Shown here: positions 12,850 to 44,087 of the stretch, piece after piece
Position numbering within the stretch: position 1 is the stretch's first letter
How the letters are laid out: every line of letters starts with the position of its first letter
Source: Escherichia phage vB_EcoM_EC001
DNA length: 64,000 nt
Sequence record: MN445185.1
Strand: one strand, 5' to 3'
Notes under the pieces: model-generated
Told to the model about the DNA's origin: nothing
Seen by the model: the letters and a program-made list of their open reading frames with translations, nothing else
Databases searched by the model: none
Position numbers and translations under genes: made by a program

Positions 12850-13125
12850 ATGCGTTATCAGAAAGATATTGTAGAGCGTCTGTGTCTGGGTCTCGCTGGT
12901 ATTAGCCAGGAACTTAGCACCGCGTTCCATAACGAGTTCTCAGCACCGCGACATGCACTGTCTGAATTTAGTCATCAGGTAAATGCCCATTACGGCAACC
13001 TGATTAATGATAAACCGAAGGTTGATGCGGTCGGTGTGCCTGAACACAATGAAGATATCCCGTACTGGATTGAAGACCTGGAACGTGTGGTTCTTCCAGT
13101 GCTCCGTGAGAGGATGAAAAAATGA
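12850..13125 (+). CDS. hypothetical protein (91 aa)
   Basis: ORF with SD GAGGA upstream; coupled to next gene. Confidence 0.5.
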   Translation: MRYQKDIVERLCLGLAGISQELSTAFHNEFSAPRHALSEFSHQVNAHYGNLINDKPKVDAVGVPEHNEDIPYWIEDLERVVLPVLRERMKK

Positions 13126-13790
13126 GATTAGACCCGGCACGGCGAAAAAAAGCAGAAGCTTATGCTTTACAGTTACTGAACTTAGTTGACCCGACCGGGA
13201 TTAACGCGGAAGCTGCCAAGCGCGCTTTCTCACGAATGTCTGACGAAGAGTTCAATCGTCTGCGCGAAGGGTTGCCTGTTTACAACCCAACTGGCGGCAA
13301 GGTCAAAATTGACCATATGCGCAATATTAAAATTTGCGAAGCGATGGGACTGAGCTTGTGTCAGCGCCTGTGGCTCACGGAACCGAAAACCGGTATCCTA
13401 CAACGTACCCGTTACCCCCATTTAGTCTTCCGCCTGCCTGCACGTCGCCAGACGCAGATGCAAGAGAAGAAAATGGCGGTGGCGAAGAACGATAAAGTCC
13501 GCGATAAACTCTCAGGTCAGGTAGTAGGTCCTTCCAAAGCTTCGGGTGTTTCGTTTCCAGAAGCCTACATCATGTACTCGGATGGACACGACTCAACGCT
13601 CCAGGAGTTCCTGTGGGCGCGTGGTGGTAACGATACGTTACAACGTGCGTTCTATCAATCGCTACGGCAAACCGGTAAAGGTCGCATCAACCTGGAAGGG
13701 GCTGAGCGTACCAGTTCAAAAGCGCCGCGTACATGGTCTTCGTACTTTAAAGCAATGCACATCGGTAACAACTTAGGACGCCCGGAATGA
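13122..13790 (+). CDS. hypothetical protein (222 aa)
   Basis: ATGA overlap with upstream stop. Confidence 0.55.
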   Translation: MRLDPARRKKAEAYALQLLNLVDPTGINAEAAKRAFSRMSDEEFNRLREGLPVYNPTGGKVKIDHMRNIKICEAMGLSLCQRLWLTEPKTGILQRTRYPHLVFRLPARRQTQMQEKKMAVAKNDKVRDKLSGQVVGPSKASGVSFPEAYIMYSDGHDSTLQEFLWARGGNDTLQRAFYQSLRQTGKGRINLEGAERTSSKAPRTWSSYFKAMHIGNNLGRPE

Positions 13791-28547: not shown

Positions 28548-31500
28548 TTAGCTTGCTTTCCGACTTACGTTTAACGACGGTGTCGGTTGGGTTATTTCCT
28601 GCCTGCGTGCAGCTGAGCCCGGAGGAGCCACATTTGCCGCTTGCTGGATACTACCACCCCGTGTGTCGTTTGCCGCTCTCGGATTTGATTTCAAAATATC
28701 ACGAATCTCTTTCAAGTAATCGCGAGACTGAATCAGTACCTTGAGCTGCTGAACATCTATCGGGTCACCATTCAGCGTTGGCGTCGATGCTGTAGCATCA
28801 GAAGTTGGGGCGGCAACTGGACGAGCTGCTGCGTTAACCTGCGCTTCCGCGCCTGCTTTCACTTTAGCAACATCCGTTGCAGACAATCCTTCTGCTGCAG
28901 CTTGCGACGCTACGGTTTCGGCTGTTGTTGAGGCATCGGATGTTCCGGAACCACCTGTAGTTGGTGTAGGTGCTGCTGGTCCTACATTACCTGCGGCGGT
29001 AGCCATTGCATCTTGTGCCGCCATGGCCCCTTTCTGCGTCAATGCGTCATCACGACGATTAGCATTATCTGCCGGCAGGTTATCTGCTGGCGACAGACTC
29101 GGATCATTAGCGGCCGGTGCACCCATTGCTGCTGCCGGGTTGGTTGGTGAATTAGGCGACAAGCCTGCAACCATATCCTTCGTCTTACTCGGATCGGCAG
29201 CGACTTCGTTGGCAGAAATTGCGCCCATACGGCGGTTCAGTTCCTGAATAACCCCATCCACGCTACGTATACGACCGTTGCTGTAGAAGACGTTGGCATT
29301 CCCTCTCAATATTGCGGATGTAATCCCAGGAGCACTCGATGCCGCCATATTCGGATTACGCTTCCATGCTTCCAGGAATTTCTTACCGCCGCCCGCACCC
29401 AGGAAGTGATACAGATAAGCCACGGCTGGAGGTGGTGCTTTACCACCCAGGTCACGCTGTGCTTGTTGGATGTTGTCACGAATGAACTGTACACCCAATA
29501 TAGCATTCGCCCACGGGTCCATCTGGTTAACACGCGGAATACCGAACTTCCGCGAATACCCCTTCATCATCCCGTCCCACGTACCGTCAATAAACTGGAA
29601 CAACCCAGACGCCGAAGCATACGGGTTTTTAGCGGTGTAGTTAAATCCGGACTCCGCCTTAGCCATTGCTAACGCCACTGCAGGTGGCACGCCCATCATG
29701 TTCGCCGCATCGGTAATCAATGCTTTGATATTCGGAACGTTCAACGCACCCTTTCTACCCAACATTTCTATCGGGTATTTTTCAGCCAGTGACTTATAAT
29801 CACCGTCTTTCACATCACTCAGGTTAATCGAAGACGAACCAGTGGTCATTGCAGCGTAGTTCCGCACACCACCAACCGCATCGACGACTTGACCCAAGTT
29901 ACCCGGCACACCACCACTCGTACCCGATGGAATGTAGCCTGAGGCGCGAGCACCGTCAGATGACAAAGAATCTCCCGAACTGATGTTCGAGTCTTCTTCA
30001 TCTTCATCGGTGACTTCCAGAGAACTGCGGTTCTTGTTACGATCCTTCCAGCGCGCACGCTTGCCATTATTTCTAATGGCTTTAATCATGTTACGCACGG
30101 CAAGGTCAGCTTCTTTTGACAACAGCTTCAGCGTTTCCAGCTCGGCTTTAATAGACGATGGGTTCGTGTTAGCCTCACCCCCTAATGGGTTGATATTCAC
30201 TTCCCACACCGACTGTCTTATACCACCTTTCAAGCTGTAGGCTGTTGACATCATCAAGCTGATTTCGTACAGGTAACCACCAGTCAGCTTCAAGTTCAGC
30301 GGATCGGCTGTTGGCAGGTAACGCTTCACCCCAACCAAATACGTCATGAATACCGGTAAGAAACGGTCAAAGAACCACCGCTTCAAACGATCTTCTTTCG
30401 GTGTACCGATAGCGTCTGGAACCATCGAGGCGATTGCTTTCTTCCAATCTCCTTTGTAGCTTGCGGTTTTCACGTCAATGTCTTTGATGACGTTCTTCTC
30501 GAATACCGTGATCAACGTGCGGGTGGCGTTATCGATGGTGGTAAAGCCGTAAGTCTTCCAACGCACCGATTCCATCGCATTCATGTCTTTCTGGTCGAGC
30601 ACCGCATTCCAGTCTACCTGAATCTGAACCTGCTCTGTTCCGTCTTCCCAACCCTCTACCTTCGCCAGATTTTTATTACGTTCGTTATCCAACTGTCCAA
30701 GTTTGTTGATAGCTTCATCAACGCCCGCGGACTTAATCCCCTCCACGGCCGGTGCCATTCCGTACTTACGTGCTTTCTTATCGTCCATTCTGGACTTGAT
30801 TGCACGCTCGACTTCATTCTGCACTTCCATAACCTCTTCACCGCTCAAGAACTCCTTCGGTGTAAAGGTTACAACGTCCCAAGCTTTCGAGAAGAAACCT
30901 TGGTTGACTTTGCGTGGGTCTGTTAACGAAGAGAACGCTTTTGCATCCTTAGTCATCTTCATTTTGTTGAAGAGAGTCAGCATGTCCTCTTTCGATACTT
31001 TCTTCGCATCGCCGACGTCAGCCAACTGGATACTGTTCGGCATTGACTTCAGTGCCGTAATCCAGCGGAGATAAATCGGAATAAAGCGCTGAAGCATAAA
31101 CGCTTGGAAGGCCAACATCTCGCCTTTTTCCTCAACGTTAATACCGAACCCTTCAGCTAGCTTCTGAACGTCTTTTCCACTTAGCCCGCGGAGACTGGCT
31201 TGGCCATCTTCCGCGTAAGACACATACTCACGCAATGCGTCTTCTAAGTAACGCGCTTTCGCCCCGTCGTCCGACGACCACTTATCGTAATCACGGAAAC
31301 CGTACTGAGCTAAACGCATCTTATCCAGGTACTGGGTATAGGTAGTCGTTGCAATCCTGTACGCGGCGTAACCAGCCGCAGCGATCGCACCACCGATAAG
31401 AATTGCCGGCCAACCCACCGCAGTCACGACGGCAGATGCCGCAGTTGCCACAGCGGACACCGCGGGTGCCGCCAAACGGGTTACTGCGAACTTACCGACA

Positions 31501-34500
31501 TTCCACGCAGCCTTACCTAAAAGACCTACTGGTTTTAACACGCCCCATTTCGTGATAGAACCGAGTATATTACCCACAGTTCCCAAGATACTGACGATGG
31601 GACCGATGATAGGTAAGCTTTTCACCATATCCCACAGACCGCCAGATTTCCCTTTGGAGCCCTGCGCTTTCTCTTTCTTCTCCTTACGTTTCTCACGCCA
31701 ACGTTTGAAGAAGTTAAGGTAATCGCGTTTTTCATCACCTTCAGGCGGCTTGTTACGTTTACCGAACTTCGCAAACATGGTGCGAATAATGCCATCGTCA
31801 CCACCTGCACGGGATACTGATTCGCGCATGGTGTTAAACCATGACATCTCTTGCAAGCCAATCATTCGGTCCAAGCGTTCGAATAACCTTGCGCCTGCAG
31901 ACTTGGCGGCATTCTTCCCTTTGTTAATAACCCTCCCTGCTGCATCACGGGCGGTCTCAAGGTCTTCCTTCGCATCGCCGTAGACTTTACGGCCAGAAAG
32001 GCCACCTTTCGCGTTCAAATGGCTGCGATAAAACTCAGCAACATCATCGTCGCGTCCAGCCAACCGACGTTCAACTTCGTAACGTGTAGCAATGTCGTGT
32101 CGTGCTCCACGATATCCATCGAGCATATCCCCAGCCCGGCCTCGGAAACCACTGAACCAACCACGCAGGCGGTCACGTCCACGACCAAAGAACGCTTTTG
32201 TTCTTGACCAACGTCCACCAAAACGTTCAGACAGTGACGCTTTCGCGCGATCATACGCCCCGCGTACTGCACGACCGATCGTACTACCGCCACCCCCGAC
32301 GCCCTTCTCCATTTCCTCTGTCCAACTTTCGTCTTCCGGATCTCCCGGTAAACGTTGGTTCAACAGTTTATAGATACGGATAAGGATGTGGTTGGTTTTC
32401 TTGCCGGTTGATGAGAAGAGACTGAAACCACCGCCCCCACCATCTTTACGGCCTTTCCACCAACGCGTCAGTGGGTTGTCGGTAATCATGTCTTTCAGAC
32501 GATCGACACCACGTTTCGCAAAACCGAGCACTTTACCCGGTAAGCTCGTTACACGGTTGAACGCTTTCTGGAGACGTGTCTTTTCTTCGCCTTCCGGAAT
32601 CTCGTTCAGCCAGTCCTTAATCTTACCAACGATGCTGCCCGCTTTCGGTGACAGGAAATCCAGGAACCTTTTCGGTAGCTTAGCCACCTTATTAAAGCCT
32701 AAGCCAATCTTACTGGCCAGACCTTGGGTCAGTGCTTGGATTTTCCCGCCTTTATAGTAGCGGAGTTTACCCGCAGCGGCTAAGTCAGCGGCTGCTAATA
32801 TCAGATTACCTGCGGAGTCAACAATATCACTCCCCAGCTTGATGTCGTCCAGCGTTTTCAGCTGAACCATTTTACCATCAATGACCTGATAGTATTCTCC
32901 AGCTTCCAGACGTGCACCTTGCAGAACAACATTACCGTGGTCATCGTAAACGTCACGGATACCCAGTAGTCCTTTACCGAAAGAGCTTACCGCTTCAAAG
33001 CCACCACGGACACTACCGCTGATAAGGCCACGCATCCGGGTTAAGAAACCAGGACCTTCTCCGCCACCCATTCCTGCGACTTTACCGCGTGCCCAGCCAC
33101 CGAACTGGTTCAGTTTATTCCAGGCACCCTTAACACCACGTTTCGCAAAGCCACCGATTCCTGCTGCGGTGTCGAACAACACACCACCCCAACGACGAAT
33201 AAGCCCATCTTCACCGATGATAATACGACGGCGTTTACCGCCACCGCTACCACCACCAGGACGAGGTGGTCCCATCTCTTCGTCACCAGAACCAGCACCC
33301 CCTGCTAACGAAGCCAGGAGAACCCCTTCTTCGTCCATACTTCTGACGTGTTCCAGAATTTTCTGGAGGGTGTCACTGTTGTTATTACCCCGAATCGCTT
33401 CGATGATGCCGTCAAAGTTATTCCGTGGCGCTTCTTCGCCGCGGTTACGTTGACTCAACAATTCAACAAAGTTAGTCGAGGTTTCACCGTAGAGAACTGC
33501 GGCTAACTGCCGAGGCGACATTCCGCGGCCTTTACCACCGCCACGTAAAGCCGGCGGCAACGACGTGTCATCGGCACCACCATTTACCCCTTGGTTCATT
33601 CGGCGCAGATAGTCGCCTAACGCCGAACCGTTTTGCAGCTTACGTTGAATCTCCTGCTCACGAGTCAACGCACGACCGCTGCGTGTCTTACCCATTGCCA
33701 AGTCATTAAACAAGGTATAGGGATCGGACAGGTCTTTATCCACGCCGAAAGTGTCACTCTTCGCGTCGTAGTTAAAGATACCCGCATCGCGCAATGCTCG
33801 CTCACCGTAAATATTCACCGCCTCGTCGATAATTGCCTGACGTTGGGTGATAGATGACTGCACTGTGGAGATTTTGCGGGCCAGCTCGTTACTTAATTCG
33901 TTGCTACCGCCGACCAAGCTATCAGAATGCCCCTGTAACGCTTCCTTAATGCGTTCTGCGGCGTTTCCTGGCATATACCGATGAAGATGCATCGGGTCTT
34001 TCAGAATCGCTTCTACGTCGAATGCGCGGCCCTGCGAGGCTCGCGACTCGATATAGTCGGCGAGATGCTGTCGATCCTTCTGCGAGAGCGTTTTGCCGCG
34101 GTCAACAAAATCCACAGTGCTGTTAATGGAATTTTGGAGACGCAGGCGTTGTTCATCGTTTGCAACCGCCTTGCGTACGCGGTTACCGACCACTTTGCGG
34201 TCTACGAAACCACGGCTGGTGATGTCATATTCCAGGTCGGCATGTTCGCCATAGCCACGACGGACAGATTTGTTAATCTCTGCCAGCCAGGCAGGAATAA
34301 CTTCAACCAGGCTAAGATATGCTTTACGGTCAAACTTCGCCGAACGGCTTAACGTTTCGCCATTACGCTCGTCAAGGAAGGCTTTCTCGCGGTTTAGCGG
34401 TTGGACAATACCGAGTTCATTCAATACCCGGAACAAATCCGCCAACGGCCCTTGCGTTTCGCCTGCGATAGCTGAGTTCGAGATAGAGGAAAGATTACCA

Positions 34501-35669
34501 AAGGTGAACGCGCCTTTCTGCAGGCGTTTCATGACCTCTGGATTTTTCTCCATCTCCTCACGAGTCCATTTCTGGAGTTTCTCGATTTGTGGGCCGAGTA
34601 GTTTCTTCGCAAGGAATCCGCTACCCCACGCAGTTGCTTTATCACGAGCATTTGTTTTGCGACGTTCAGCAGTCAACGAAGAGCTGTCGCTCATGCCGAA
34701 ATCGTCTTCAACACCCATGCCGAGAACAGACTCTAACAAACCACGACCTTCGCCAAATATACCAGAAATCTTCTTCTTGGTATTTTCGCGAATCATGTCC
34801 ATAAACCCGTCAGCATAACGCAACGGGTTCATCCATTCCGCAGCCTGGCGTTTAACGTTCGCCCAACGGACTTCTGAGAAATCTTCCTTCGCGTAATCCG
34901 GCAATGCCGTGTTCTTCACGATGGCTTCTAAAGCAGGCGTATTACGATCGAACTCCGACTGCTTCATCTTCACGATGTCTTGGATGGCAAACAGGGTACG
35001 GTATTGCAGTTCGAGTTTCTTACGCTCGATGTTTAAGAATACCCCACGGCTTAACCCGGTTAGCAGGTTAATGTCTTTCGCCATCCCAATCATGGTTTGG
35101 TGCATTGCATCCGCACGCATCTCTTTGATGCTGTCGCGGAGCTTATCCTCTACCATGCGGTCCTGCAGCTGACGTTGTTCATCGGCATCCTTTGGCACAC
35201 CTGAGAATACGTCGCCCAGTTCACGATCCATCAATGCCTGATTCGGATCGTAGTTCTGGTAATCTAACTGGTCAGATTTTGACCACTTGTCGATGCGCTT
35301 AGTAACTGCATCCGGCAAGTATTTCTTCATCGTCGGACCGAGTTGGCGCGCTTGCATCTTCAGCGTGCGCTCGGTCTTCACAAGCTCCCCTTTCGTATGG
35401 GCGTAAATGTCCTTTGCTGCAGCTGCCGCTGACTGATAGCCCTCGTATGCATCAGCTGCCGGCTTAGGCATCCCCTTGAGGATAACTTGGTCGCGTTTCC
35501 CTTCTGGCCAGATAGTTGACAACGCCGACTTCCTGGCAACATTCAGGGTACTGAGTATCGGGCTTCGTTTTTTCTCGTCTTTGGGACGGGGTGGTTCACC
35601 GAAATCATCCCAGTCGTCGAGTCTATCTAAATCGATATCATCGAAACCGTCTTTGCCTCTTTTTGCCAT
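28548..35669 (-). CDS. giant virion protein (2373 aa) with lytic transglycosylase (SLT) domain near the C-terminus, internal TM/Ala-rich segment and Gly-rich tracts
   Basis: Uninterrupted 7.1-kb ORF; SLT signature AMAKAESGFNYTAKNPYASASGLFQFIDGTWDGM encoded around 29280-29680; hydrophobic AVSAVATAASAVVTAVGWPAILIGGAIAAAGYAAY. Confidence 0.85.
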   Translation of the reverse strand: MAKRGKDGFDDIDLDRLDDWDDFGEPPRPKDEKKRSPILSTLNVARKSALSTIWPEGKRDQVILKGMPKPAADAYEGYQSAAAAAKDIYAHTKGELVKTERTLKMQARQLGPTMKKYLPDAVTKRIDKWSKSDQLDYQNYDPNQALMDRELGDVFSGVPKDADEQRQLQDRMVEDKLRDSIKEMRADAMHQTMIGMAKDINLLTGLSRGVFLNIERKKLELQYRTLFAIQDIVKMKQSEFDRNTPALEAIVKNTALPDYAKEDFSEVRWANVKRQAAEWMNPLRYADGFMDMIRENTKKKISGIFGEGRGLLESVLGMGVEDDFGMSDSSSLTAERRKTNARDKATAWGSGFLAKKLLGPQIEKLQKWTREEMEKNPEVMKRLQKGAFTFGNLSSISNSAIAGETQGPLADLFRVLNELGIVQPLNREKAFLDERNGETLSRSAKFDRKAYLSLVEVIPAWLAEINKSVRRGYGEHADLEYDITSRGFVDRKVVGNRVRKAVANDEQRLRLQNSINSTVDFVDRGKTLSQKDRQHLADYIESRASQGRAFDVEAILKDPMHLHRYMPGNAAERIKEALQGHSDSLVGGSNELSNELARKISTVQSSITQRQAIIDEAVNIYGERALRDAGIFNYDAKSDTFGVDKDLSDPYTLFNDLAMGKTRSGRALTREQEIQRKLQNGSALGDYLRRMNQGVNGGADDTSLPPALRGGGKGRGMSPRQLAAVLYGETSTNFVELLSQRNRGEEAPRNNFDGIIEAIRGNNNSDTLQKILEHVRSMDEEGVLLASLAGGAGSGDEEMGPPRPGGGSGGGKRRRIIIGEDGLIRRWGGVLFDTAAGIGGFAKRGVKGAWNKLNQFGGWARGKVAGMGGGEGPGFLTRMRGLISGSVRGGFEAVSSFGKGLLGIRDVYDDHGNVVLQGARLEAGEYYQVIDGKMVQLKTLDDIKLGSDIVDSAGNLILAAADLAAAGKLRYYKGGKIQALTQGLASKIGLGFNKVAKLPKRFLDFLSPKAGSIVGKIKDWLNEIPEGEEKTRLQKAFNRVTSLPGKVLGFAKRGVDRLKDMITDNPLTRWWKGRKDGGGGGFSLFSSTGKKTNHILIRIYKLLNQRLPGDPEDESWTEEMEKGVGGGGSTIGRAVRGAYDRAKASLSERFGGRWSRTKAFFGRGRDRLRGWFSGFRGRAGDMLDGYRGARHDIATRYEVERRLAGRDDDVAEFYRSHLNAKGGLSGRKVYGDAKEDLETARDAAGRVINKGKNAAKSAGARLFERLDRMIGLQEMSWFNTMRESVSRAGGDDGIIRTMFAKFGKRNKPPEGDEKRDYLNFFKRWREKRKEKKEKAQGSKGKSGGLWDMVKSLPIIGPIVSILGTVGNILGSITKWGVLKPVGLLGKAAWNVGKFAVTRLAAPAVSAVATAASAVVTAVGWPAILIGGAIAAAGYAAYRIATTTYTQYLDKMRLAQYGFRDYDKWSSDDGAKARYLEDALREYVSYAEDGQASLRGLSGKDVQKLAEGFGINVEEKGEMLAFQAFMLQRFIPIYLRWITALKSMPNSIQLADVGDAKKVSKEDMLTLFNKMKMTKDAKAFSSLTDPRKVNQGFFSKAWDVVTFTPKEFLSGEEVMEVQNEVERAIKSRMDDKKARKYGMAPAVEGIKSAGVDEAINKLGQLDNERNKNLAKVEGWEDGTEQVQIQVDWNAVLDQKDMNAMESVRWKTYGFTTIDNATRTLITVFEKNVIKDIDVKTASYKGDWKKAIASMVPDAIGTPKEDRLKRWFFDRFLPVFMTYLVGVKRYLPTADPLNLKLTGGYLYEISLMMSTAYSLKGGIRQSVWEVNINPLGGEANTNPSSIKAELETLKLLSKEADLAVRNMIKAIRNNGKRARWKDRNKNRSSLEVTDEDEEDSNISSGDSLSSDGARASGYIPSGTSGGVPGNLGQVVDAVGGVRNYAAMTTGSSSINLSDVKDGDYKSLAEKYPIEMLGRKGALNVPNIKALITDAANMMGVPPAVALAMAKAESGFNYTAKNPYASASGLFQFIDGTWDGMMKGYSRKFGIPRVNQMDPWANAILGVQFIRDNIQQAQRDLGGKAPPPAVAYLYHFLGAGGGKKFLEAWKRNPNMAASSAPGITSAILRGNANVFYSNGRIRSVDGVIQELNRRMGAISANEVAADPSKTKDMVAGLSPNSPTNPAAAMGAPAANDPSLSPADNLPADNANRRDDALTQKGAMAAQDAMATAAGNVGPAAPTPTTGGSGTSDASTTAETVASQAAAEGLSATDVAKVKAGAEAQVNAAARPVAAPTSDATASTPTLNGDPIDVQQLKVLIQSRDYLKEIRDILKSNPRAANDTRGGSIQQAANVAPPGSAARRQEITQPTPSLNVSRKAS

Positions 35670-35698
35670 AATGTTTCTTCCAATTCAGGAGCTTAAAA

Positions 35699-37312
35699 GT
35701 GAGAAAGCTAAACTGGGTTGACTTTTACTTGTTAAACGTCAACAAGTCCCTGGTGTCGCATTTAAAACCAGTTACAACAACAGACACCTTTCAGGGACTG
35801 ACGAAAAACTTTCACCCTGAAGGACTGTATTCAACCGAAATTTTTGGCCTCACAGGGAGCGAAGCACGAGACTCAACGTTCTCGTACATTGATATCAAAC
35901 TGGATATCATTTCGCCGACCGTTTGTTTGGCATTGTTCCAGCTGAAACAGCTGTACGAAGAAATCTGTTCCGGGAAGCGATTCGCTATCTGGAATGAGAA
36001 AGAAAAAGATTTCGAGCCGGCTCTGCCCAGTGATAAAGGTGCAGACACCGGCTTCAACTTCTTCCTACGCTACTACGAACAACTGACGCCAGGACGCAAC
36101 GAATCAATGCGTCGCGACGAGACAGTCGATTTCTTCAATAAGTTCCGTCCGGTCAGTCTCAGCCGCTATGTGCTGGTTCTACCTGCGGGATTACGTGATT
36201 TGGTCATTCGTCAGGATGGCCGCGACCAAGAAGAAGAGATTGGCGGACTCTACCGCCGTCTGATTTCTCTGGCACGTGCAGTCCCCGACCGCAGTACGCG
36301 AACGGAACTGACTGACCCGGTTCGCTGGAAGCTCCAACAAACCTTTAATGACATCTGGATGTACTTCTTCAACATCCAAGACGGTAAAGGTGGTTTTGCG
36401 CGTCGTAAAGTGACGTCACGTAAGTTAATGAACGGTACGCGTAACGTACTGTCTTCATTCTCAACCGGTTCCAAGGTCATGGGTCGCGAAGATGCGATTC
36501 GTCCAACGGATACCCGTATCGGTTTGTACCAAACCCTGAAGGCGTTACTGCCTGTGGCTCAATACCACATCCGTGAACGTTACCTCAGTAACATCCGGGC
36601 AGGGGATGGCAACTTATACGGCGTTAACACCAAAACACTCAAGCGTGAGTTCCTGGAAGTCTCCGGGCGGGTGTATGACCTTTTCACTACCGACGATGGC
36701 ATCGAAACACTCATCAACAGAATGGAAGCGCGCGAGCTTCGACATAAACCGCTGATGATTGATCCGGACCATTACGTGGCATTAATCTACCAAGACAAAC
36801 GCAGCTTCAAAATCTTTTACGATATTGAAGACCTGCCGGAAGGACGTGACCGTAAGCTTGTCCGCGGACTGAGCTTAGCGGAACTCCTCTATTTGTCAGG
36901 TTACGATATTTGGAATGACTACTTCTCGTTCATCACGCGTTATCCGGTTACGGGACGCGGTTCGACTTACTCCTCGACCATAAGATTGGAGACCACCACT
37001 TCTTCCCTCTATTTGCATGAACTGGAAGACGATTGGGTCACGTTAAAAGAGAAGGGTGCAATTAGCTTCCCTGATCGTACCGTGAAAACCTTTGTGGAAT
37101 CCATGGCACCACATCCATCCCGATTAGGTGGATTGGGTGGTGACTACGATGGTGACACCGGCTCAGCAAACTGCCCGATGTCAACCGAAGCGCTCGAGGA
37201 AAATCGGAAGTGGGTCAGTTCGAAAAACTACTGGTTTGCAACAGACGGCAGTTTCAAAATCAATCCGGTTAACAACGTGATTAAAAGAACGACTGCTGCG
37301 CTGTTGAAATGA
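35699..37312 (+). CDS. multisubunit RNA polymerase beta-prime-like subunit, N-terminal catalytic fragment (537 aa)
   Basis: GGDYDGDTGSANCPMSTEALEE aligns residue-for-residue with the beta-prime catalytic loop [22 protein letters not shown] (three Asp, P+12, E+16, A+17, E+20), E. coli sequence from memory; GTG start with SD AGGAGC. Confidence 0.6.
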   Translation: MRKLNWVDFYLLNVNKSLVSHLKPVTTTDTFQGLTKNFHPEGLYSTEIFGLTGSEARDSTFSYIDIKLDIISPTVCLALFQLKQLYEEICSGKRFAIWNEKEKDFEPALPSDKGADTGFNFFLRYYEQLTPGRNESMRRDETVDFFNKFRPVSLSRYVLVLPAGLRDLVIRQDGRDQEEEIGGLYRRLISLARAVPDRSTRTELTDPVRWKLQQTFNDIWMYFFNIQDGKGGFARRKVTSRKLMNGTRNVLSSFSTGSKVMGREDAIRPTDTRIGLYQTLKALLPVAQYHIRERYLSNIRAGDGNLYGVNTKTLKREFLEVSGRVYDLFTTDDGIETLINRMEARELRHKPLMIDPDHYVALIYQDKRSFKIFYDIEDLPEGRDRKLVRGLSLAELLYLSGYDIWNDYFSFITRYPVTGRGSTYSSTIRLETTTSSLYLHELEDDWVTLKEKGAISFPDRTVKTFVESMAPHPSRLGGLGGDYDGDTGSANCPMSTEALEENRKWVSSKNYWFATDGSFKINPVNNVIKRTTAALLK

Positions 37313-37330
37313 TACCCATAAGGCACATGT

Positions 37331-40300
37331 ATGATTTTTCTGAAACAGTTTAACCAGCGCTTTACCGTGCGCAAGACCGATGAGTTCGGTCGTCCGCGTA
37401 TTATCCCGCTGGAGAAGCTCCAGCTCCCACGTGGTTCTATCTACCACACCATCGATTTAGACCAGGTGGTTTTAGCGCCGCCGTTAACCACACCGTGTTT
37501 TGGCCAGCTGGAAAAACCGGCGATGATTCGCCACCACTTCCAGCTGCCTGAAGACGGCATTATTGGCCACCCGCGTAAGAAACCGGTTGTTGGCCAAGAA
37601 CGTCAAATCTTCCAGTACCATCGTAACAACCGTCGTATTCGTCGCATGATTGAAGACGGCGTGGTACGTTCAGATCCGAAAGTGCTGCTCATCGAAAACT
37701 ACACCCCGATGCTGCCGCATTATTTCTACCCTGATACTCTGATGTCCTGGTACGAACGTCTGCACAACATTCAGCTGCTGATAACTAACCAGATGAAAAC
37801 TGACTCACGTGAGTACATGCGTCAGAACTACTACATCATCGAACTGGGTAACGTACTGCCTTCTTTCGATCGTTTTAAAATGACGTATAACGATCGTGTT
37901 AAAACCAAACTGGAGCGCTTTAAGGACTTTAATCTCCTGTGGTTACTGGAACTGTTCGGTTGGGCTTACGGCGATCAGCAAGCAACACTGTTTGACGGCA
38001 TGGACATGAACCAGCTGTCACGTGTGAACTTTATCTTCACGCACAACGGTGGTTTTACATCCATGAACATGGGTGTAATTGAAAGAATGCGTAAGTCTGC
38101 CGGCGGTCGTTTGACTGACGTGCAGATGGGCAGAATGTTCTACCGTACACTGACTACGGTGATGACCACACCGCCGTCTACCGACTACGAAGATGACGAG
38201 TTCGTTACACCGGAAGGGGACGAACGCGTACATCTGGGAGAGGACGACGATGTTGTTGAAGCCGTTGCCAGTAAACCGGAAGAAACCCTCGATATCGTCG
38301 ACGATGAAGCAACACAAAGCGACAACGTTGACGATATATTGAACGATCATGAGTTCGATGAGAAAGAAGATCTGGTCATCGAAGCGCCGAAAGAAGATGT
38401 CAAACCAACCACCATCGTCGTAGAACGCACCATCCCACACGATGCTGTGATTAAACAGGAAGTTGAGCGCCTGGCAGAAGCGGGCCGCGTCACCGCCAAA
38501 GCGTATCAGTTCCTGAACGAATCTTCTAAACGTTTCGTAAACTTACCCAACCCGTACAATCCTAAAGAGACGTACGGCGAAGGTCTGACCATCGATCCGA
38601 AGAAACTCGAAGTTAAAGCCGAGCCTAAGAAGATTGAACGCTTAGTTACGGATGAAGCCTGGGCGGAAAATACCACCGACCAAATCATTCGTCAGTACAA
38701 CCAGGAAATCTTCCCGAAAGATATTCTGGGGGCAGTAGCGTCATCTCAGCGTCTCGGTTTGGCGATTCACAATCACACTGTTGAGAAAGAGATTTCCGTT
38801 ACCGGGAATATCGAACACCACACGTTGCGTATTCAGCCGATTGGCGGAGAACCAACCACGGTACGTTTCTCAATTCCTGCATTAACCGAAGACGGTACTT
38901 GGGTTGCAAATGGTGTGGAATATACAATGCGTCGTCAGCGTGTTGATCTTCCTATCCGTAAAGTGTCCCACGATACTGTAGCGTTAACCACTGCCTACGG
39001 GAAGAACTTTGTCCGTCGCAGTGATAAAGTCGTCAATGATTACGGACGTTGGCTCACTAACGCGATTATTACTCGCGCGGTCGATCCAAAGAACACCGAA
39101 ATCACTGATGCAAAACTGGCGAATGTGTTCGATCCGCTGTCTAAACTGCCGCGTCAATATACCGAAGTGGCGCGTCGTGTAGCAGCGTTCAACGCAATTG
39201 GGTACCAATGGAGCTTTGACATTAAACAGAAAGCGGCATTCTTTAACGAAGGGCAACTGGCAGACGCGGACCGTGTCGAGCTGGTACCTGTGGCGAAGAA
39301 ACCGCGGAGTCATGTCATCGTCGGTATGGATAAAAACTCCCAGCTTTATCGAGTGGATAAGGATAAGACCGAACCACTGGGTACACTCGCCGAGGTCTTT
39401 GGCGTGGACACCTCTAAGGCTCCACGAGAAATGACCGAACTGTCACTGATGGGCAAATCAATCTCGCTGGGCTTTGTGTTTTCGTACTATCTCGGGTTAA
39501 CCGGGATGTTGAAACACTTTGGTATCAGTTACGAGGTTCTCTCTGTCGGACAACGTATCGATAAAGGTCAGTTCGACTCCATCATTCGTCTCCAGGATGC
39601 GAAAATTGCAATTGTCTGCGAGAACGATCAACAGAGGATGATTGTCAACGGCTTAGACCGTTACATCAAACACTTTACCACGTATACCGAGTCGGAAGTT
39701 GACCGGGAAGACATTTATCTGAACCTGTTACGCGATGCAGATGGGCTAACACCACGCTACATCAAAGAGCTGAAACTGATGCGAACCGCATTTGTTGATG
39801 ACATGCACGCGCGTATCCTCAGGAAAATGGGCGAGCCGGAAACCTTTATCGGCTTACTGGAGCGTTCTAACGAACTGCTGCAGACGGACCACACGTTACC
39901 GGAAATTAACGGTGACGAAATGATGTTCATCGGGAACCAACGTATTTCGTATCACATCTACACCGCGATGGTGCGGGCGATGCGTAACTACAACAACGCG
40001 CCTAACTCGAATCGTAAGTTTGAGTTGACGCAGGACATGGTGTGGGGTGCGATTAACTCCGACCCGTCTGTTCTGCTGGCTCCTGGCGCAAACCCGGTAC
40101 AGAACATCAAAGAAAAAGATGTTGTTACCATGGGCGGTACAGGCGGTCGTAACCGCAAAACCATGGTATACAGTACCCGTGAATTCCAACCGAGCGACCT
40201 GGGGATTATCTCCGGTAACACGGTCGATAACGGCGACGTAGGTATCACCGCCTTTGCAACAAACAATCCGCGTTACGACACCGTGGACGGCACGACCTTT

Positions 40301-41536
40301 AAAAAGGACCTCGATAAACTGAAGCCAGGTGAGGCACTGTCATTTATTGATGGCTTGGTGCCGGATACCCTGATGGACGATGCTAAGCGTCAGAACTTCG
40401 TTGGGATTCAATTCGGTTCTGCGACCAGTTGTGTTGGCGCAACCACCACACCGTATCGTACCGAGCAAGAAAAGTTCGTGGCACACCGTACTTCTGTGAA
40501 GCACGCACGCGTAATCGATAAACCAGGCAAGATTGTGGAGGTTCTTAACGACCACGTTAAAATCAAATACGACGACGGAGAGGAAGAAGCTTTCCCACTG
40601 GGCCGTTGGTTCGGTCCACACGAAGGGACTTACTACCCACACACCCTGGTAACGAAATGGAAGCGCGGAGATAAACTCCCTGCCGGTGCCGTTATCACGT
40701 ACAACGAACAACACTTTGAACCAGACATCTACGATCCAACGCAGGTCAGCTTTAAAAACGGGATACTGGCAACTGTCGCTTTGATTGAAGGGGAAGAAGT
40801 AATTGAGGACTCCAACGCCATTAGTGAGCGGTTCGCTGCTAAGGCTGAAGCCGATGTTACCAAACTCAAAGAAGTCACAATGACGTTTACCCAGAACCTG
40901 TTGGAGATGGTAAAAGAAGGGGACCACGTAGACGTGGATTCAATTCTATGCACCTTCACCGACAACCTGACCGGCGATATGAGCGGGTTCAGTAAAGAAG
41001 CAGCGGAAACGCTGCGTGAGTTAAGCTCCTTTGCACCACGCTCTGGTGTTCGTGGGTTTATCGACAAAATCGAAGTGGTTTACCACGGCGAGGTGGAAGA
41101 TATGACCCCGTCTTTGGCGGAGATGGTTCGTAAATACGACCGTATACGTCGGAAGACTGCGCTGGCTCTCAAACGTGACGAGCCGAAGGACGGTCGAGTC
41201 AACGGTGATTTTCGTGTTGAGGGGGTGCCGTTAGCGTACAATAGCCTGTGTGTCCGATTCTACATCACACACCGGGTAGAGATGGCAGCAGCGGATAAGA
41301 TGGTTATTGCTAACCAGCTGAAAACGACGGTTCAGGAAGTGATGTATGGAACCAACAAAACGGAAGACGGGCAGGAACTCGACATTATCTTTGGTCGTGA
41401 TTCCGTCGACGCACGTATCGTGGGTTCTATCATGCGCATCGGAACCACCAACGCTGTCGGGTATCGTGGTGGGGAGAATATCGGACGCATCTTAGATGGT
41501 GAAGACGTCCCAGCCTTGCCGGCTAAAATCAACTAA
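37331..41536 (+). CDS. multisubunit RNA polymerase beta-like subunit (1401 aa), divergent
   Basis: C-terminal AADKMVIANQLKTTVQ..EDGQELDIIFGRDSVDARIVGSIMRIG resembles E. coli beta [39 protein letters not shown] (from memory); adjacent to the beta-prime-like gene. Confidence 0.5.
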   Translation: MIFLKQFNQRFTVRKTDEFGRPRIIPLEKLQLPRGSIYHTIDLDQVVLAPPLTTPCFGQLEKPAMIRHHFQLPEDGIIGHPRKKPVVGQERQIFQYHRNNRRIRRMIEDGVVRSDPKVLLIENYTPMLPHYFYPDTLMSWYERLHNIQLLITNQMKTDSREYMRQNYYIIELGNVLPSFDRFKMTYNDRVKTKLERFKDFNLLWLLELFGWAYGDQQATLFDGMDMNQLSRVNFIFTHNGGFTSMNMGVIERMRKSAGGRLTDVQMGRMFYRTLTTVMTTPPSTDYEDDEFVTPEGDERVHLGEDDDVVEAVASKPEETLDIVDDEATQSDNVDDILNDHEFDEKEDLVIEAPKEDVKPTTIVVERTIPHDAVIKQEVERLAEAGRVTAKAYQFLNESSKRFVNLPNPYNPKETYGEGLTIDPKKLEVKAEPKKIERLVTDEAWAENTTDQIIRQYNQEIFPKDILGAVASSQRLGLAIHNHTVEKEISVTGNIEHHTLRIQPIGGEPTTVRFSIPALTEDGTWVANGVEYTMRRQRVDLPIRKVSHDTVALTTAYGKNFVRRSDKVVNDYGRWLTNAIITRAVDPKNTEITDAKLANVFDPLSKLPRQYTEVARRVAAFNAIGYQWSFDIKQKAAFFNEGQLADADRVELVPVAKKPRSHVIVGMDKNSQLYRVDKDKTEPLGTLAEVFGVDTSKAPREMTELSLMGKSISLGFVFSYYLGLTGMLKHFGISYEVLSVGQRIDKGQFDSIIRLQDAKIAIVCENDQQRMIVNGLDRYIKHFTTYTESEVDREDIYLNLLRDADGLTPRYIKELKLMRTAFVDDMHARILRKMGEPETFIGLLERSNELLQTDHTLPEINGDEMMFIGNQRISYHIYTAMVRAMRNYNNAPNSNRKFELTQDMVWGAINSDPSVLLAPGANPVQNIKEKDVVTMGGTGGRNRKTMVYSTREFQPSDLGIISGNTVDNGDVGITAFATNNPRYDTVDGTTFKKDLDKLKPGEALSFIDGLVPDTLMDDAKRQNFVGIQFGSATSCVGATTTPYRTEQEKFVAHRTSVKHARVIDKPGKIVEVLNDHVKIKYDDGEEEAFPLGRWFGPHEGTYYPHTLVTKWKRGDKLPAGAVITYNEQHFEPDIYDPTQVSFKNGILATVALIEGEEVIEDSNAISERFAAKAEADVTKLKEVTMTFTQNLLEMVKEGDHVDVDSILCTFTDNLTGDMSGFSKEAAETLRELSSFAPRSGVRGFIDKIEVVYHGEVEDMTPSLAEMVRKYDRIRRKTALALKRDEPKDGRVNGDFRVEGVPLAYNSLCVRFYITHRVEMAAADKMVIANQLKTTVQEVMYGTNKTEDGQELDIIFGRDSVDARIVGSIMRIGTTNAVGYRGGENIGRILDGEDVPALPAKIN

Positions 41537-41538
41537 TG

Positions 41539-41562
41539 TAGGGCGGGTCGCTCCCGCCCGGT
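41539..41562 (+). terminator. GC hairpin, possible terminator or RNA stability element
   Basis: GGGCGGG-TCGCTC-CCGCCC hairpin after the 1401-aa gene; weak T-tract. Confidence 0.35.
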
Positions 41563-41583
41563 AAATAAACTCCGGAGTTAATA

Positions 41584-41877
41584 ATGGGAATTTTAGATAC
41601 GCTCAAGCAGCAGCATGGGATTCCGGTGGGCCGTAATAGCACGAATCCGGAAACGGAAGGTTATTCCCCACAGCAACGCATGAACTTTGTTGTTCTGGGC
41701 AATGCGGTTGAATTGGCCACCGAAATTATTCACGGACTGCTGAAGGGCAGCAATGGCCTGTCTGACCGCATGGGCGATCAGCGTTTGCTGAAACGAGACA
41801 TCGCTGATATGGTGGGTGCGCGCATTACTGGTCGCATCCAGGATTCCATCAGCACCAAAAACGGGGGTCAGGCATGA
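41584..41877 (+). CDS. hypothetical protein (97 aa)
   Basis: ORF with SD GGAG upstream; coupled to next gene. Confidence 0.5.
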   Translation: MGILDTLKQQHGIPVGRNSTNPETEGYSPQQRMNFVVLGNAVELATEIIHGLLKGSNGLSDRMGDQRLLKRDIADMVGARITGRIQDSISTKNGGQA

Positions 41878-43358: not shown

Positions 43359-44087
43359 GTGGTCGTGAGCGCCATTGAAACAGCACGTCGTGACGCGACG
43401 AAAATTCATGCAGATTTAGTGGACCAAGGCACGGCCACCATCACCAAAGGGGGATGTTACATTTACATCCCTGTTGGCTTCGTGGCTAAAGAGCTGGCGG
43501 TAATTTCTTCGCAAGTCGAAATCGTCGGCATTTTCGCTATCTCCACTGACCGCAAAACCTACGGGGTATCGAACGTCACGACGTTCATTGAAATTACCCC
43601 GTCGGCGTTTGAGGAAATTGATGTTCAGGGTGTGCCGTATTACGAGTTCCGTTTTGACCCCGGCACGGTGGTGTTCCCCAACCGAATGCTGCAAGTGCTC
43701 TCCTCGCCAGTCTACAACATCGCTTCGTACATCTACGACTTCGGAAACCGGCCTTTCTGGTACACCGCAGTAGATGACGCTGAGCTATTGTCTGACACTA
43801 AGACGTGGAACGGCTTTACGGTCTTTAACGACCAGATCACCGCTGACTGTTATGCTGCCCACACACAGCGTAAGGTTGGCGACCCGCGGACGTATTTCCG
43901 CTACACCCTGAAAAAAGACAGCGATTTGATGAATCGGGTGCAGTTTATTCCGCTGCGTTCAGGTTCATTGAACAAAACTTCCCGGTTGGCCAAGATTGCA
44001 GATGTGGAACTGAAACAGGGTATCCGTTCTGCACTCCAGGTCGATCCGGTACGTGCAGAGCCACTCGAGGATTTGTATATGAGGTAA
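43359..44087 (+). CDS. hypothetical protein (242 aa)
   Basis: Long ORF. Confidence 0.55.
   Translation: MVVSAIETARRDATKIHADLVDQGTATITKGGCYIYIPVGFVAKELAVISSQVEIVGIFAISTDRKTYGVSNVTTFIEITPSAFEEIDVQGVPYYEFRFDPGTVVFPNRMLQVLSSPVYNIASYIYDFGNRPFWYTAVDDAELLSDTKTWNGFTVFNDQITADCYAAHTQRKVGDPRTYFRYTLKKDSDLMNRVQFIPLRSGSLNKTSRLAKIADVELKQGIRSALQVDPVRAEPLEDLYMR

What the first reader, a model, noticed from the sequence alone, without database searches (positions are those of the whole stretch)
35699..41536. Divergent, apparently split multisubunit-type RNA polymerase encoded next to the giant virion protein gene
The 537-aa product carries GGDYDGDTGSANCPMSTEALEE, which aligns residue-for-residue with the universal beta-prime active-site loop [22 protein letters not shown]. 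The 1401-aa product ends with a DKM...K...EDG..DII...RIG block resembling the beta active-site region ([13 protein letters not shown]...[17 protein letters not shown]), but with the GRHGNKG signature replaced. I saw no zinc ribbon, bridge helix or trigger loop, so the remaining subunit fragments are presumably encoded elsewhere. Position next to the 2373-aa SLT protein suggests a virion-packaged RNAP as in phiKZ-like phages (from memory, not verified).
Basis: partly seen in the sequence, partly recalled or inferred. Interest (0 to 1): 0.8.

Follow-up and report, generated by a model that had tools for sequence, protein, structure and literature searches.

The report
Known jumbo-phage virion RNA polymerase genes

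Summary

- **Origin.** The window comes from a SPN3US-like Salmonella jumbo phage (Seoulvirus). The region is 98-99% identical at DNA level to more than 30 sequenced isolates.
- **Gene identity.** The 537-aa ORF is SPN3US gp240 (virion RNAP beta-prime N-terminal part; PhiKZ Gp180 ortholog). The 1401-aa ORF is SPN3US gp241 (virion RNAP beta 'N' subunit; PhiKZ gp178 ortholog).
- **537-aa protein.** The DxDGD aspartates are invariant in 48 homologs. Profile and fold searches hit phage AR9, cyanobacterial and bacterial beta-prime (E 7e-12; Foldseek 9e-16).
- **1401-aa protein.** Its last ~1045 residues are colinear with almost all of bacterial beta (HMMER 6e-11; Foldseek 2e-28). The DKM block falls exactly on [12 protein letters not shown], and both lysines are invariant.
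- **Other fragments.** The beta C-terminal gene (gp218 homolog) is at 13122-13790. The literature's beta-prime C candidate (gp244 homolog) is at 43359-44087. The middle beta-prime piece lies outside the window.
- **Virion packaging.** This rests on published mass spectrometry and amber-mutant data, not on my analysis.
- **Still unexplained.** A conserved ~280-aa N-terminal domain plus acidic linker on the beta-like subunit has no detectable relative of known structure.
- **Seen in relatives.** Group I introns interrupt these genes exactly at the catalytic motifs. The copies here are intron-less.

The parts
35699..37312 (+). Virion RNAP beta-prime N-terminal subunit (537 aa; SPN3US gp240, PhiKZ Gp180 ortholog). 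It ends just after the catalytic double-psi beta-barrel.
   Evidence: ORF. phrog_2986, E 3.6e-238. 98-99% DNA identity to SPN3US-like phages. Profile hits to PDB beta-prime: AR9 7s01_d at E 7e-12, bacterial chains at 1e-6 to 1e-9. AF2 model pLDDT 81. Foldseek top hits are all beta-prime, best 9e-16. Literature assignment beta-prime-N.
37142..37156 (+). Codons for D482-Y-D484-G485-D486, the Mg2+-binding catalytic loop (E. coli beta-prime D460/D462/D464).
   Evidence: Invariant in 48 of 48 homologs. Ungapped alignment to NADFDGD.
37331..41536 (+). Virion RNAP beta-like large subunit (1401 aa; SPN3US gp241 'beta-N', PhiKZ gp178 ortholog).
   Evidence: ORF. phrog_3148, E 0. Profile hit to Thermus beta 1iw7_C, E 6e-11, in four colinear stretches. 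hhalign against E. coli beta 515-1107, probability 92%, E 7e-7. AF2 model of residues 356-1401: pLDDT 86, pTM 0.83. Foldseek against bacterial beta, E 2e-28.
37331..38170 (+). N-terminal domain (~residues 1-280) of the beta-like subunit. It is specific to virion RNAPs and unrelated to cellular beta. Function unknown.
   Evidence: 477 cluster representatives at E<=1e-3, always at the N-terminus of beta-like proteins. Found in 193 phage records, including PhiPA3 gp211, 201phi2-1 and OBP. No PDB or Pfam match to its profile. A head-targeting role was proposed in PMC5105663.
38171..38398 (+). Acidic linker (residues ~281-356; 31 D/E in 76 residues) between the N-terminal domain and the beta-homologous body.
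   Evidence: Sequence and composition. Poorly conserved in alignment A2.
40376..40381 (+). Codons for D1016-D1017 (E. coli beta D674-D675, the HDDANR motif). In related phages this is the homing site of a group I intron. It is uninterrupted here.
   Evidence: D1016 is invariant and D1017 is present in 29/32. hhalign register. Intron at this site in L014. PhiPA3 gp210 / PhiKZ gp178 D1072 (PMC11620839). No Rfam hit in the window.
40805..40810 (+). Codons for E1159-D1160 (E. coli beta E813-D814, an active-site acidic pair).
   Evidence: Invariant in 32/32. Aligned to NFEDS by hhalign.
41294..41323 (+). Codons for D1322-K1323...K1331, the 'DKM' block. It corresponds to E. coli beta D1064-K1065...K1073 of [12 protein letters not shown].
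   Evidence: K1323 and K1331 are 32/32, D1322 is 31/32 and Q1329 is 32/32. Aligned by HMMER (domain 4) and hhalign. E. coli numbering checked.
13122..13790 (+). Beta C-terminal subunit of the same enzyme (222 aa; SPN3US gp218 homolog).
   Evidence: Position matches SPN3US_0218. phrog_3233 'RNA polymerase beta subunit', E 1.4e-93. hhalign against E. coli beta 1160-1309 is weak (E 0.0038, probability 9%) but continues exactly where the 1401-aa protein stops. A HMMER profile search of the PDB found nothing. Lost from virions with gp241 in the amber mutant.
43359..44087 (+). Candidate beta-prime C-terminal subunit (242 aa; SPN3US gp244 homolog). The assignment comes from the literature only.
   Evidence: phrog_2926 'virion structural protein'. 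Conserved synteny in metagenomic relatives. My hhalign and PDB profile searches gave no beta-prime signal. PMC5105663 reports co-dependence on gp241 for packaging and a weak HHpred match (E 0.05).
28548..35669 (-). Neighbour, not part of the enzyme: giant 2373-aa virion/tail protein with an SLT lytic transglycosylase domain (SPN3US gp239). It is transcribed divergently, and its start is 29 bp from the beta-prime-N start.
   Evidence: ORF. Pfam SLT E 1.3e-9 and phrog_3201 'tail fiber protein'. The same giant(-)/beta-prime-N/beta-N order occurs in L016.

Best explanation
The two ORFs are the two largest catalytic subunits of the virion-packaged multisubunit RNA polymerase (vRNAP) of a SPN3US-like, PhiKZ-related jumbo phage.

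The 537-aa protein is the N-terminal third of a beta-prime homolog. It supplies the DxDGD loop that binds the catalytic Mg2+. Its gene stops right after the double-psi barrel, the same split point as cyanobacterial and plastid RpoC1.

The 1401-aa protein is a beta homolog covering the lobes, fork, the second double-psi barrel and the lysine-bearing 'DKM...K' substrate-binding strand. A ~280-aa virion-RNAP-specific domain and an acidic linker precede this body.

Three smaller proteins complete the enzyme: beta-C (here at 13122-13790), beta-prime-M (outside the window) and probably beta-prime-C (here at 43359-44087). Together they form a two-barrel core without alpha, omega or sigma homologs.

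From published work on SPN3US and PhiKZ, the complex assembles in the infected cell and is incorporated into the prohead in a way that depends on the 1401-aa subunit. About 10 copies sit in each virion. It is ejected with the DNA and transcribes the early genes independently of the host polymerase.

Shown here: homology, conserved catalytic residues, fold, colinearity, gene identity and the location of the beta-C gene. Taken from the literature: packaging, essentiality and early-gene transcription.
For: Identity of the locus:
- 98-99% DNA identity over the full 5.8 kb to SPN3US and more than 30 relatives. The genes are annotated there as RNAP beta subunits 4 and 5 (SPN3US_0240 and SPN3US_0241).
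- PHROG families annotated 'RNA polymerase beta subunit' at E 3.6e-238 and E 0.

Beta-prime-N (537 aa):
- Invariant D482/D484/G485/D486.
- Profile hits to AR9 nvRNAP beta-prime (7e-12) and to bacterial, plastid and cyanobacterial beta-prime, including the catalytic loop.
- hhalign against E. coli beta-prime 218-357, E 1.8e-6.
- AF2 model pLDDT 81. The listed top 50 Foldseek PDB hits are all RNA polymerase entries, and 585 hits reach E<=1e-3 (best 9e-16).

Beta-like (1401 aa):
- Profile hit to Thermus beta, 6e-11, in four colinear stretches.
- hhalign of residues 917-1363 against E. coli beta 515-1107, E 7e-7.
- Invariant equivalents of D674/D675/R678, E813/D814, K1065/K1073 and R1106.
- AF2 model pLDDT 86, pTM 0.83. 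Foldseek matches full-length bacterial beta at 2e-28 over ~1100 columns.

Other subunits: beta-C in the window.

Virion status and function, from the literature:
- SPN3US gp240, gp241, gp218, gp42 and gp244 are detected in heads by mass spectrometry. All are lost when gp241 carries an amber mutation, and gp241 is essential (PMC5105663).
- PhiKZ Gp180 (DFDGD subunit) co-precipitates with gp178, gp80 and gp149, is present at ~10 copies per virion and is injected (PMC10612078).
- Reviews: PMC7598289 and PMC13282480.

Homologs occur in 322 phage records across PhiKZ-like jumbo phages.
Against: - Pfam models do not detect either protein.
- Single-sequence searches of the PDB are not significant. 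Recognition needs profiles or structure.
- The beta-C assignment is only weakly supported in my hands (hhalign probability 9%; no HMMER hit).
- I could not reproduce any beta-prime similarity for the gp244 homolog.
- No vRNAP of this family had been purified as of the 2020 review. Catalytic activity of this particular complex is therefore inferred from conserved residues, genetics and early-transcription data rather than measured.
- Packaging was not tested for this exact isolate.
Confidence: 0.95

Rival explanations
1. The two proteins belong to the phage's second polymerase, the non-virion RNAP (nvRNAP). That enzyme is made after infection and transcribes late genes inside the phage nucleus.
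For: Both polymerase sets are beta/beta-prime-like and split. The best PDB sequence and fold hit of the 537-aa protein is the AR9 non-virion beta-prime-N, simply because no virion RNAP structure appeared among the hits.
Against: - The genes are the direct orthologs (98-99% DNA identity) of SPN3US gp240 and gp241, which are found in virions by mass spectrometry.
- PhiKZ orthologs Gp180 and gp178 are virion subunits.
- They sit among virion genes: giant SLT protein, gp244-like head protein and the Peptidase_S80 prohead protease.
- The N-terminal extension profile does not hit any deposited phage nvRNAP chain in the PDB.
Confidence: 0.02
2. The proteins are exapted, catalytically dead polymerase relics that now serve only as structural or ejected head proteins.
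For: - Loss of gp241 or its PhiKZ homolog perturbs head composition and capsid assembly.
- The GRHGNKG signature is altered.
- No enzyme activity has been measured for any vRNAP.
Against: - Every catalytic residue I could map is invariant across homologs down to 22-37% identity: three Asp of DxDGD, the DD...R motif, the ED pair, both lysines and the R of PSRM. That pattern is not expected for a relic.
- Early PhiKZ/AR9 transcription is independent of the host RNAP and of new protein synthesis, which requires an injected polymerase.
Confidence: 0.02
3. The motif matches are chance resemblances, or the proteins are single-subunit two-barrel polymerases of the YonO or crAss type rather than beta/beta-prime homologs.
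For: Pfam finds nothing. Sequence identity to cellular subunits is only 12-14%.
Against: - The profile E-values (7e-12, 6e-11) and Foldseek E-values (9e-16, 2e-28) are far beyond chance.
- The alignments are colinear with separate beta-prime and beta chains over ~550 and ~1100 columns.
- Each protein carries only one barrel's motifs, as in multisubunit enzymes.
Confidence: 0.01

Closest known systems
Salmonella phage SPN3US virion RNAP subunits gp240 (beta-prime-N) and gp241 (beta-N) (Thomas et al. 2016, J Virol, PMC5105663)
   Same: Same genes. DNA identity is 98.2% over the whole 5.8 kb, and the 537-aa protein is 99.6% identical. Lengths, order and neighbours (gp239, gp242-245) are the same.
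   Different: Only strain-level substitutions. The window's phage is slightly closer to SPLA5c and the SPFM isolates (98.8-98.9%).
Pseudomonas phage PhiKZ vRNAP: Gp180 (DFDGD subunit) and gp178 (beta subunit), with gp80 and gp149
   Same: Orthologous subunits with the same split architecture. Both lie next to the giant SLT-type virion protein gene. They are virion-packaged and injected, at ~10 copies per virion. The N-terminal extension of the beta subunit is shared with PhiKZ-type relatives (PhiPA3, 201phi2-1, OBP).
   Different: Only ~21-24% (beta N-terminal domain; PhiPA3, 201phi2-1, OBP) and ~34% (beta-prime-N; Pseudomonas aeruginosa jumbo phages) protein identity. Gene order and orientation around the pair differ.
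Non-virion RNAPs of AR9 (PDB 7S00/7S01) and PhiKZ
   Same: Same kind of alpha-less, omega-less split beta/beta-prime core. AR9 beta-prime-N is the best sequence and fold match of the 537-aa protein. The beta-prime split site after the barrel is the same.
   Different: The nvRNAP has four core polypeptides plus a fifth promoter-specificity subunit, is not packaged, and splits beta at a different place. The N-terminal extension profile of the vRNAP beta hits no deposited nvRNAP chain.
Bacterial RNAP beta/beta-prime (E. coli RpoB/RpoC, Thermus) and the cyanobacterial/plastid split beta-prime (gamma/RpoC1)
   Same: Two-barrel catalytic core. The DxDGD, DD..R, ED and DK...K residues are conserved. 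The fold matches over the whole chains. The beta-prime-N ends where RpoC1 ends.
   Different: - 12-14% identity.
- No beta-prime zinc ribbon cysteines.
- GRHGN is replaced by (V/I)ANQL between the two lysines.
- There are extra splits and an extra ~355-aa N-terminal region on beta.
- No alpha, omega or sigma partners are known.

Membership tests
Multisubunit RNAP beta-prime (N-terminal part with double-psi barrel A) | Catalytic (N)ADFDGD-type loop with three aspartates | tested here: met
   GGDYDGD at residues 480-486. D482/D484/G485/D486 are invariant in 48/48 homologs. The loop aligns without gaps to NADFDGD.
Multisubunit RNAP beta-prime (N-terminal part with double-psi barrel A) | Significant profile similarity, colinear with beta-prime | tested here: met
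   HMMER profile against the PDB: 7s01_d at 7e-12 and bacterial beta-prime at 1e-6 to 1e-9, in two colinear stretches. hhalign against E. coli beta-prime 218-357, E 1.8e-6. Pfam single-sequence scan negative.
Multisubunit RNAP beta-prime (N-terminal part with double-psi barrel A) | Fold match to solved beta-prime | tested here: met
   AF2 pLDDT 81. Foldseek PDB: 585 hits at E<=1e-3, and the listed top 50 are all RNA polymerase entries (best 9e-16).
Multisubunit RNAP beta-prime (N-terminal part with double-psi barrel A) | N-terminal zinc ribbon (E. coli C70/C72/C85/C88) | tested here: not met
   Only three Cys (76, 90, 492), none conserved in the family. Not a universal requirement of the superfamily, so this marks divergence rather than exclusion.
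Multisubunit RNAP beta | Significant, colinear profile similarity to beta | tested here: met
   Thermus beta 1iw7_C at 6e-11, with four colinear stretches covering beta 117-880. hhalign against E. coli beta 515-1107, probability 92%, E 7e-7.
Multisubunit RNAP beta | Active-site residues: HDDANR aspartates/arginine, ED pair, two lysines of [12 protein letters not shown] | tested here: met
   D1016, R1020, E1159, D1160, K1323 and K1331 are invariant. D1017 is 29/32 and D1322 is 31/32.
Multisubunit RNAP beta | Full GRHGNKG signature | tested here: not met
   The sequence is DKMVIANQLKT, family consensus DK-x-V-x-A-N-Q-x-K. R, H, G and N are replaced and only the lysines are kept. This is a family-specific variant of the motif.
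Multisubunit RNAP beta | Fold match to solved beta | tested here: met
   AF2 model of residues 356-1401: pLDDT 86, pTM 0.83. Foldseek against bacterial beta at 2e-28 with ~1100 aligned columns.
PhiKZ-like jumbo-phage virion RNAP (vRNAP) | Orthology to experimentally defined vRNAP subunits | tested here: met
   98-99% DNA identity and identical gene order to SPN3US gp240/gp241. PHROG families. Ortholog mapping to PhiKZ Gp180/gp178.
PhiKZ-like jumbo-phage virion RNAP (vRNAP) | Physical presence in the virion head and ejection into the host | not testable with these tools
   Literature only: mass spectrometry of SPN3US wild type, tailless and amber-mutant particles; PhiKZ mCherry-Gp180 packaged and injected.
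PhiKZ-like jumbo-phage virion RNAP (vRNAP) | Five-polypeptide split core (beta-prime N/M/C, beta N/C) | tested here: inconclusive
   Beta-prime-N and beta-N are confirmed. Beta-C is present in the window but has only weak profile support. The beta-prime-C candidate is present, but I could not reproduce its homology. Beta-prime-M lies outside the window.
PhiKZ-like jumbo-phage virion RNAP (vRNAP) | Transcribes early phage genes independently of host RNAP | not testable with these tools
   Literature on PhiKZ and AR9. A sigma70-type promoter scan around the genes is below chance (3 found against 6.7 expected), which is uninformative.

The most novel reading that the evidence does not exclude
The ~280-aa N-terminal domain plus acidic linker of the beta-like subunit (37331-38398) may be the module that makes this polymerase a virion enzyme. 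It is conserved at the N-terminus of vRNAP beta subunits in at least 193 isolated phages and 477 sequence clusters. It has no detectable relative among solved structures or Pfam families. It could be the capsid-targeting and ejection signal for the whole complex, or the so-far unidentified promoter-specificity element that replaces sigma or the nvRNAP fifth subunit. My data establish only its conservation and its lack of known homologs. Thomas et al. already proposed head targeting without testing it.
Probability: 0.3. Interest if true: 0.5.

Novelty: already known. Interest (0 to 1): 0.12.

Why it matters
As a discovery it does not matter. These exact genes were annotated in 2011 and characterized genetically and proteomically in 2016. 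The enzyme class is a textbook feature of PhiKZ-like jumbo phages.

It matters as a check on the first stage. A reader with no tools correctly recognised a highly divergent split polymerase (12-14% identity to cellular subunits, invisible to Pfam) from two short motifs.

Three questions about the enzyme remain open. I found no purified or solved virion RNAP of this family, either in the papers I read or among the PDB hits. It is unknown how the enzyme recognises early promoters without a sigma-like factor. It is also unknown how a ~400-kDa complex is packed into a DNA-filled head and passed through the tail. The conserved N-terminal domain of the beta-like subunit is the obvious place to look.

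Tried and rejected
- **Pfam on both proteins.** No family hit. The only match was Helicase_Sgs1 at E 0.087, below its cut-off, which I rejected as noise.
- **Single-sequence phmmer against the PDB.** The 537-aa protein gave only E 0.53 to plastid beta-prime. The 1401-aa protein gave unrelated hits through its acidic linker. Profiles were needed.
- **Beta-C (gp218 homolog).** The HMMER profile search of the PDB gave only GFP at E 0.73, rejected. hhalign gave the right region of beta, but at probability 9%.
- **Beta-prime-C candidate (gp244 homolog).** The seven-sequence profile was too shallow (Neff 1.5). hhalign against E. coli beta-prime gave E 0.62. The PDB profile search gave a helicase loader at E 0.0079, which I regard as spurious.
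- **N-terminal domain profile (A6).** The best PDB hits were YoeB at 0.093 and an FKBP at 0.1, and Pfam hits were scattered single-member noise. All rejected.
- **Rfam on the whole window.** No family hit, so there are no introns or riboswitches in or near the genes.
- **Promoter and terminator scan of 35400-42000.** Nothing above the shuffled expectation.
- **Shorter relatives as extra protein splits.** I considered that the ~550-aa and ~1050-aa relatives of the beta-like protein were additional protein-level splits. I rejected this in the three loci checked (one QRxD case, L016; one DD case, L014; one GD|K case, L016). Each break is followed by a group I intron, and in the two cases where I read the downstream sequence (L014, and L016 after QRGD) the reading frame resumes.

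Full report
**What is in the sequence.** The window holds a 537-aa ORF (35699-37312, +, GTG start with an AGGAG ribosome-binding site 6 nt upstream). An 18-nt gap separates it from a 1401-aa ORF (37331-41536, +). Both diverge from a 2373-aa ORF on the minus strand whose start lies only 29 bp away. The quoted strings are present. GGDYDGDTGSANCPMSTEALEE is at residues 480-501 of the first protein. AADKMVIANQLKTT...EDGQELDIIFGRDSVDARIV...RIG is at residues 1320-1371 of the second. The giant neighbour has a Pfam SLT domain at residues 1983-2071.

**Where the window comes from.** Megablast of the 5.8-kb region against phage genomes gives full-length matches at 98-99% identity to more than 30 SPN3US-like Salmonella jumbo phages (genus Seoulvirus), and 60-90% to Erwinia relatives. 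In SPN3US the two ORFs are SPN3US_0240 and SPN3US_0241, annotated 'putative DNA-directed RNA polymerase beta subunit 4' and '5'. The giant gene is SPN3US_0239. PHROG families annotated 'RNA polymerase beta subunit' match end to end (E 3.6e-238 and E 0).

**Independent test of the beta-prime reading.** Pfam does not see the 537-aa protein. A single-sequence PDB search is not significant, although its best hits are plastid beta-prime at the right place. I aligned 48 homologs down to 37% identity (A1). D482, D484, G485 and D486 are invariant in that alignment.
- The A1 profile hits the beta-prime chain of the phage AR9 non-virion polymerase (7S01_d, E 7e-12).
- It also hits plastid, cyanobacterial and bacterial beta-prime (1e-9 to 1e-6) in two colinear stretches, one of them the catalytic loop.
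- hhalign aligns residues 140-253 to E. coli beta-prime 218-357 (E 1.8e-6).
- An AlphaFold2 model (mean pLDDT 81) gives 585 PDB matches at E<=1e-3. The listed top 50 are all RNA polymerase entries. They are led by AR9 beta-prime-N (9e-16) and the naturally split cyanobacterial gamma/RpoC1.

The protein ends about 50 residues after the DxDGD loop, the same split point as RpoC1, as the 2020 review notes. It has three non-conserved cysteines and therefore no zinc ribbon.

**Independent test of the beta reading.** I aligned 32 homologs of the 1401-aa protein down to 22% identity (A2).
- The A2 profile hits Thermus beta (1IW7_C, E 6e-11) in four colinear stretches spanning beta residues 117-880 of 1119. 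The fourth stretch aligns the DKM block to GDKLANRHGNKG.
- hhalign aligns residues 917-1363 to E. coli beta 515-1107 (probability 92%, E 7e-7).

In that register, with E. coli numbering checked:
- D1016/D1017/R1020 correspond to D674/D675/R678.
- E1159/D1160 correspond to E813/D814.
- D1322/K1323/K1331 correspond to D1064/K1065/K1073.
- R1362 corresponds to R1106.

All of these are invariant or nearly so in the family. The family consensus is DK-x-V-x-A-N-Q-x-K, which keeps only the two lysines. An AlphaFold2 model of residues 356-1401 is confident (pLDDT 86, pTM 0.83). It matches full-length bacterial beta chains at E 2e-28 over about 1100 columns. So the protein is not a small fragment. It carries about four fifths of beta, including the second barrel.

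**The rest of the enzyme.** Thomas et al. 2016 (PMC5105663) assign SPN3US gp240 as beta-prime-N, gp241 as beta-N, gp218 as beta-C, gp42 as beta-prime-M and gp244 as a candidate beta-prime-C.
- The gp218 homolog is in the window at 13122-13790. It matches phrog_3233 'RNA polymerase beta subunit'. Its profile aligns to E. coli beta 1160-1309, which continues where the 1401-aa protein stops, but only weakly (E 0.0038, probability 9%). HMMER against the PDB finds nothing.
- The gp244 homolog is at 43359-44087. I could not reproduce any beta-prime similarity for it with a shallow seven-sequence profile. That assignment rests on the published genetics.
- gp42 lies outside the window.

**How it works.** Homology, conserved catalytic residues, fold and gene identity are shown here. 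The following comes from the literature.
- All five proteins are found in SPN3US heads by mass spectrometry. All disappear when gp241 carries an amber mutation, and gp241 is essential.
- In PhiKZ the DFDGD subunit Gp180 co-precipitates with gp178, gp80 and gp149. It is present at about 10 copies per virion, is injected, and stays outside the phage nucleus.
- Early genes of PhiKZ and AR9 are transcribed without host polymerase or new protein synthesis.

The most likely mechanism is therefore a two-barrel core assembled from five polypeptides without alpha, omega or sigma. It is packed into the prohead through the large beta-like subunit, ejected with the DNA, and starts the early programme.

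**The only uncharacterised part.** Residues 1-280 of the beta-like subunit, and the acidic linker that follows (31 D/E in 76 residues), have no counterpart in cellular beta.
- A full HMMER scan of 1.84 billion cluster representatives finds 477 relatives, always at the extreme N-terminus of beta-like proteins.
- tblastn finds the domain in 193 phage genomes. These include PhiPA3 gp211, 201phi2-1 and OBP. No record from a Gram-positive host was among the listed organisms at this sensitivity.
- A trimmed profile (A6) matches nothing in the PDB or Pfam. It therefore also misses any deposited phage non-virion polymerase chain.

Thomas et al. proposed that this region targets the complex to the head.

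**A side result about 'splitness'.** The relatives of the beta-like protein fall into three length classes. The ~550-650-aa class ends at ...RKQRxD (residue 539 here). The ~1050-aa class ends at ...DD (residues 1016-1017 here). In the cases I checked these are introns, not protein splits.
- In L014 a group I intron (RF00028, 66 bits, E 2e-15) follows DRDD. The frame then resumes, and the next ORF aligns to residues 1035-1374 here.
- In L016, three group I introns interrupt the pair. One follows ...GLTAD, the first aspartate of DxDGD, and comes with an HNH ORF. One follows RKQRGD. One follows ...GVGD, the aspartate of the DKM block.
- The DD site is the published homing site of the PhiPA3 gp210 intron endonuclease in the PhiKZ gp178 gene (PMC11620839).

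The window has no Rfam hit at all, so both genes here are intron-less alleles.

**Verdict.** Novelty is nil, because the genes are published, annotated and 98-99% identical to a studied model phage. Interest is low. The residual open point is the function of the conserved N-terminal domain of the beta-like subunit.

Noticed in passing
L016:4922-12809; L014:3486-3813 (relatives); corresponding window sites 37142-37156, 38930-38947, 40376-40381, 41294-41299: In metagenomic relatives, group I introns (Rfam RF00028, 52-66 bits) interrupt the vRNAP genes exactly at catalytic motifs. The sites are after the first Asp of DxDGD (with an HNH ORF), after RKQRxD, after the DD of HDDANR, and after the Asp of the DKM block. 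This explains why about two thirds of the listed top 150 beta-like cluster representatives appear truncated at ~550 or ~1050 aa. The DD site is published (PhiPA3 gp210). I did not check whether the other three are described.
   Followed up: partly
L013:1762-2286 and L015:3289-4746: Directly downstream of the RKQRxD break, two relatives carry an ORF with a DUF723 domain (485 aa in L015) instead of the next exon. This is presumably an intron-borne or free-standing homing endonuclease. No Rfam intron reached threshold on these short contigs.
   Followed up: partly
window 9167-10090 (+): A 307-aa ORF (phrog_6160, unknown function, no Pfam hit) sits between the gp213 and gp214 homologs. It is absent from SPN3US. 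Among the 30 related phage records that match this stretch, only JN03 and vB_EcoM_Lh1B carry this ~1-kb segment, so it is a strain-variable accessory insertion.
   Followed up: partly
window 44150-44953 (+): The gp245 homolog is a Peptidase_S80 prohead protease (E 1e-84). The order giant SLT gene(-) / beta-prime-N / beta-N / ~480 aa / ~241 aa / S80 protease is conserved in distant metagenomic relatives (L014, L016). The vRNAP genes therefore sit in a conserved head-morphogenesis block.
   Followed up: partly
window 35670-35698: Only 29 bp separate the divergent starts of the giant SLT gene and the beta-prime-N gene. No sigma70-like promoter occurs in or near this gap (3 sites in 6.6 kb against 6.7 expected). 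Whatever promoters drive the two genes must overlap coding sequence or be of the phage's own type.
   Followed up: no
database proteins P0101, P0102, P0104, P0155, P0156, P0158, P0192-P0195 (Salmonella phages SPFM1-SPFM20): Several SPFM phage records give homologs with very high HMMER scores but BLASTP coverage of only 3-35%, and odd lengths. One representative matched the N-terminal domain in 17 separate stretches. This looks like frameshift-ridden or scrambled assemblies rather than biology.
   Followed up: no
window 43359-44087: The shallow profile of the gp244 homolog gave a marginal PDB hit to a helicase loader (8V9T_V, E 0.0079, residues 98-223) and none to beta-prime. This is probably noise, but the beta-prime-C assignment of this protein is still not independently confirmed.
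   Followed up: no
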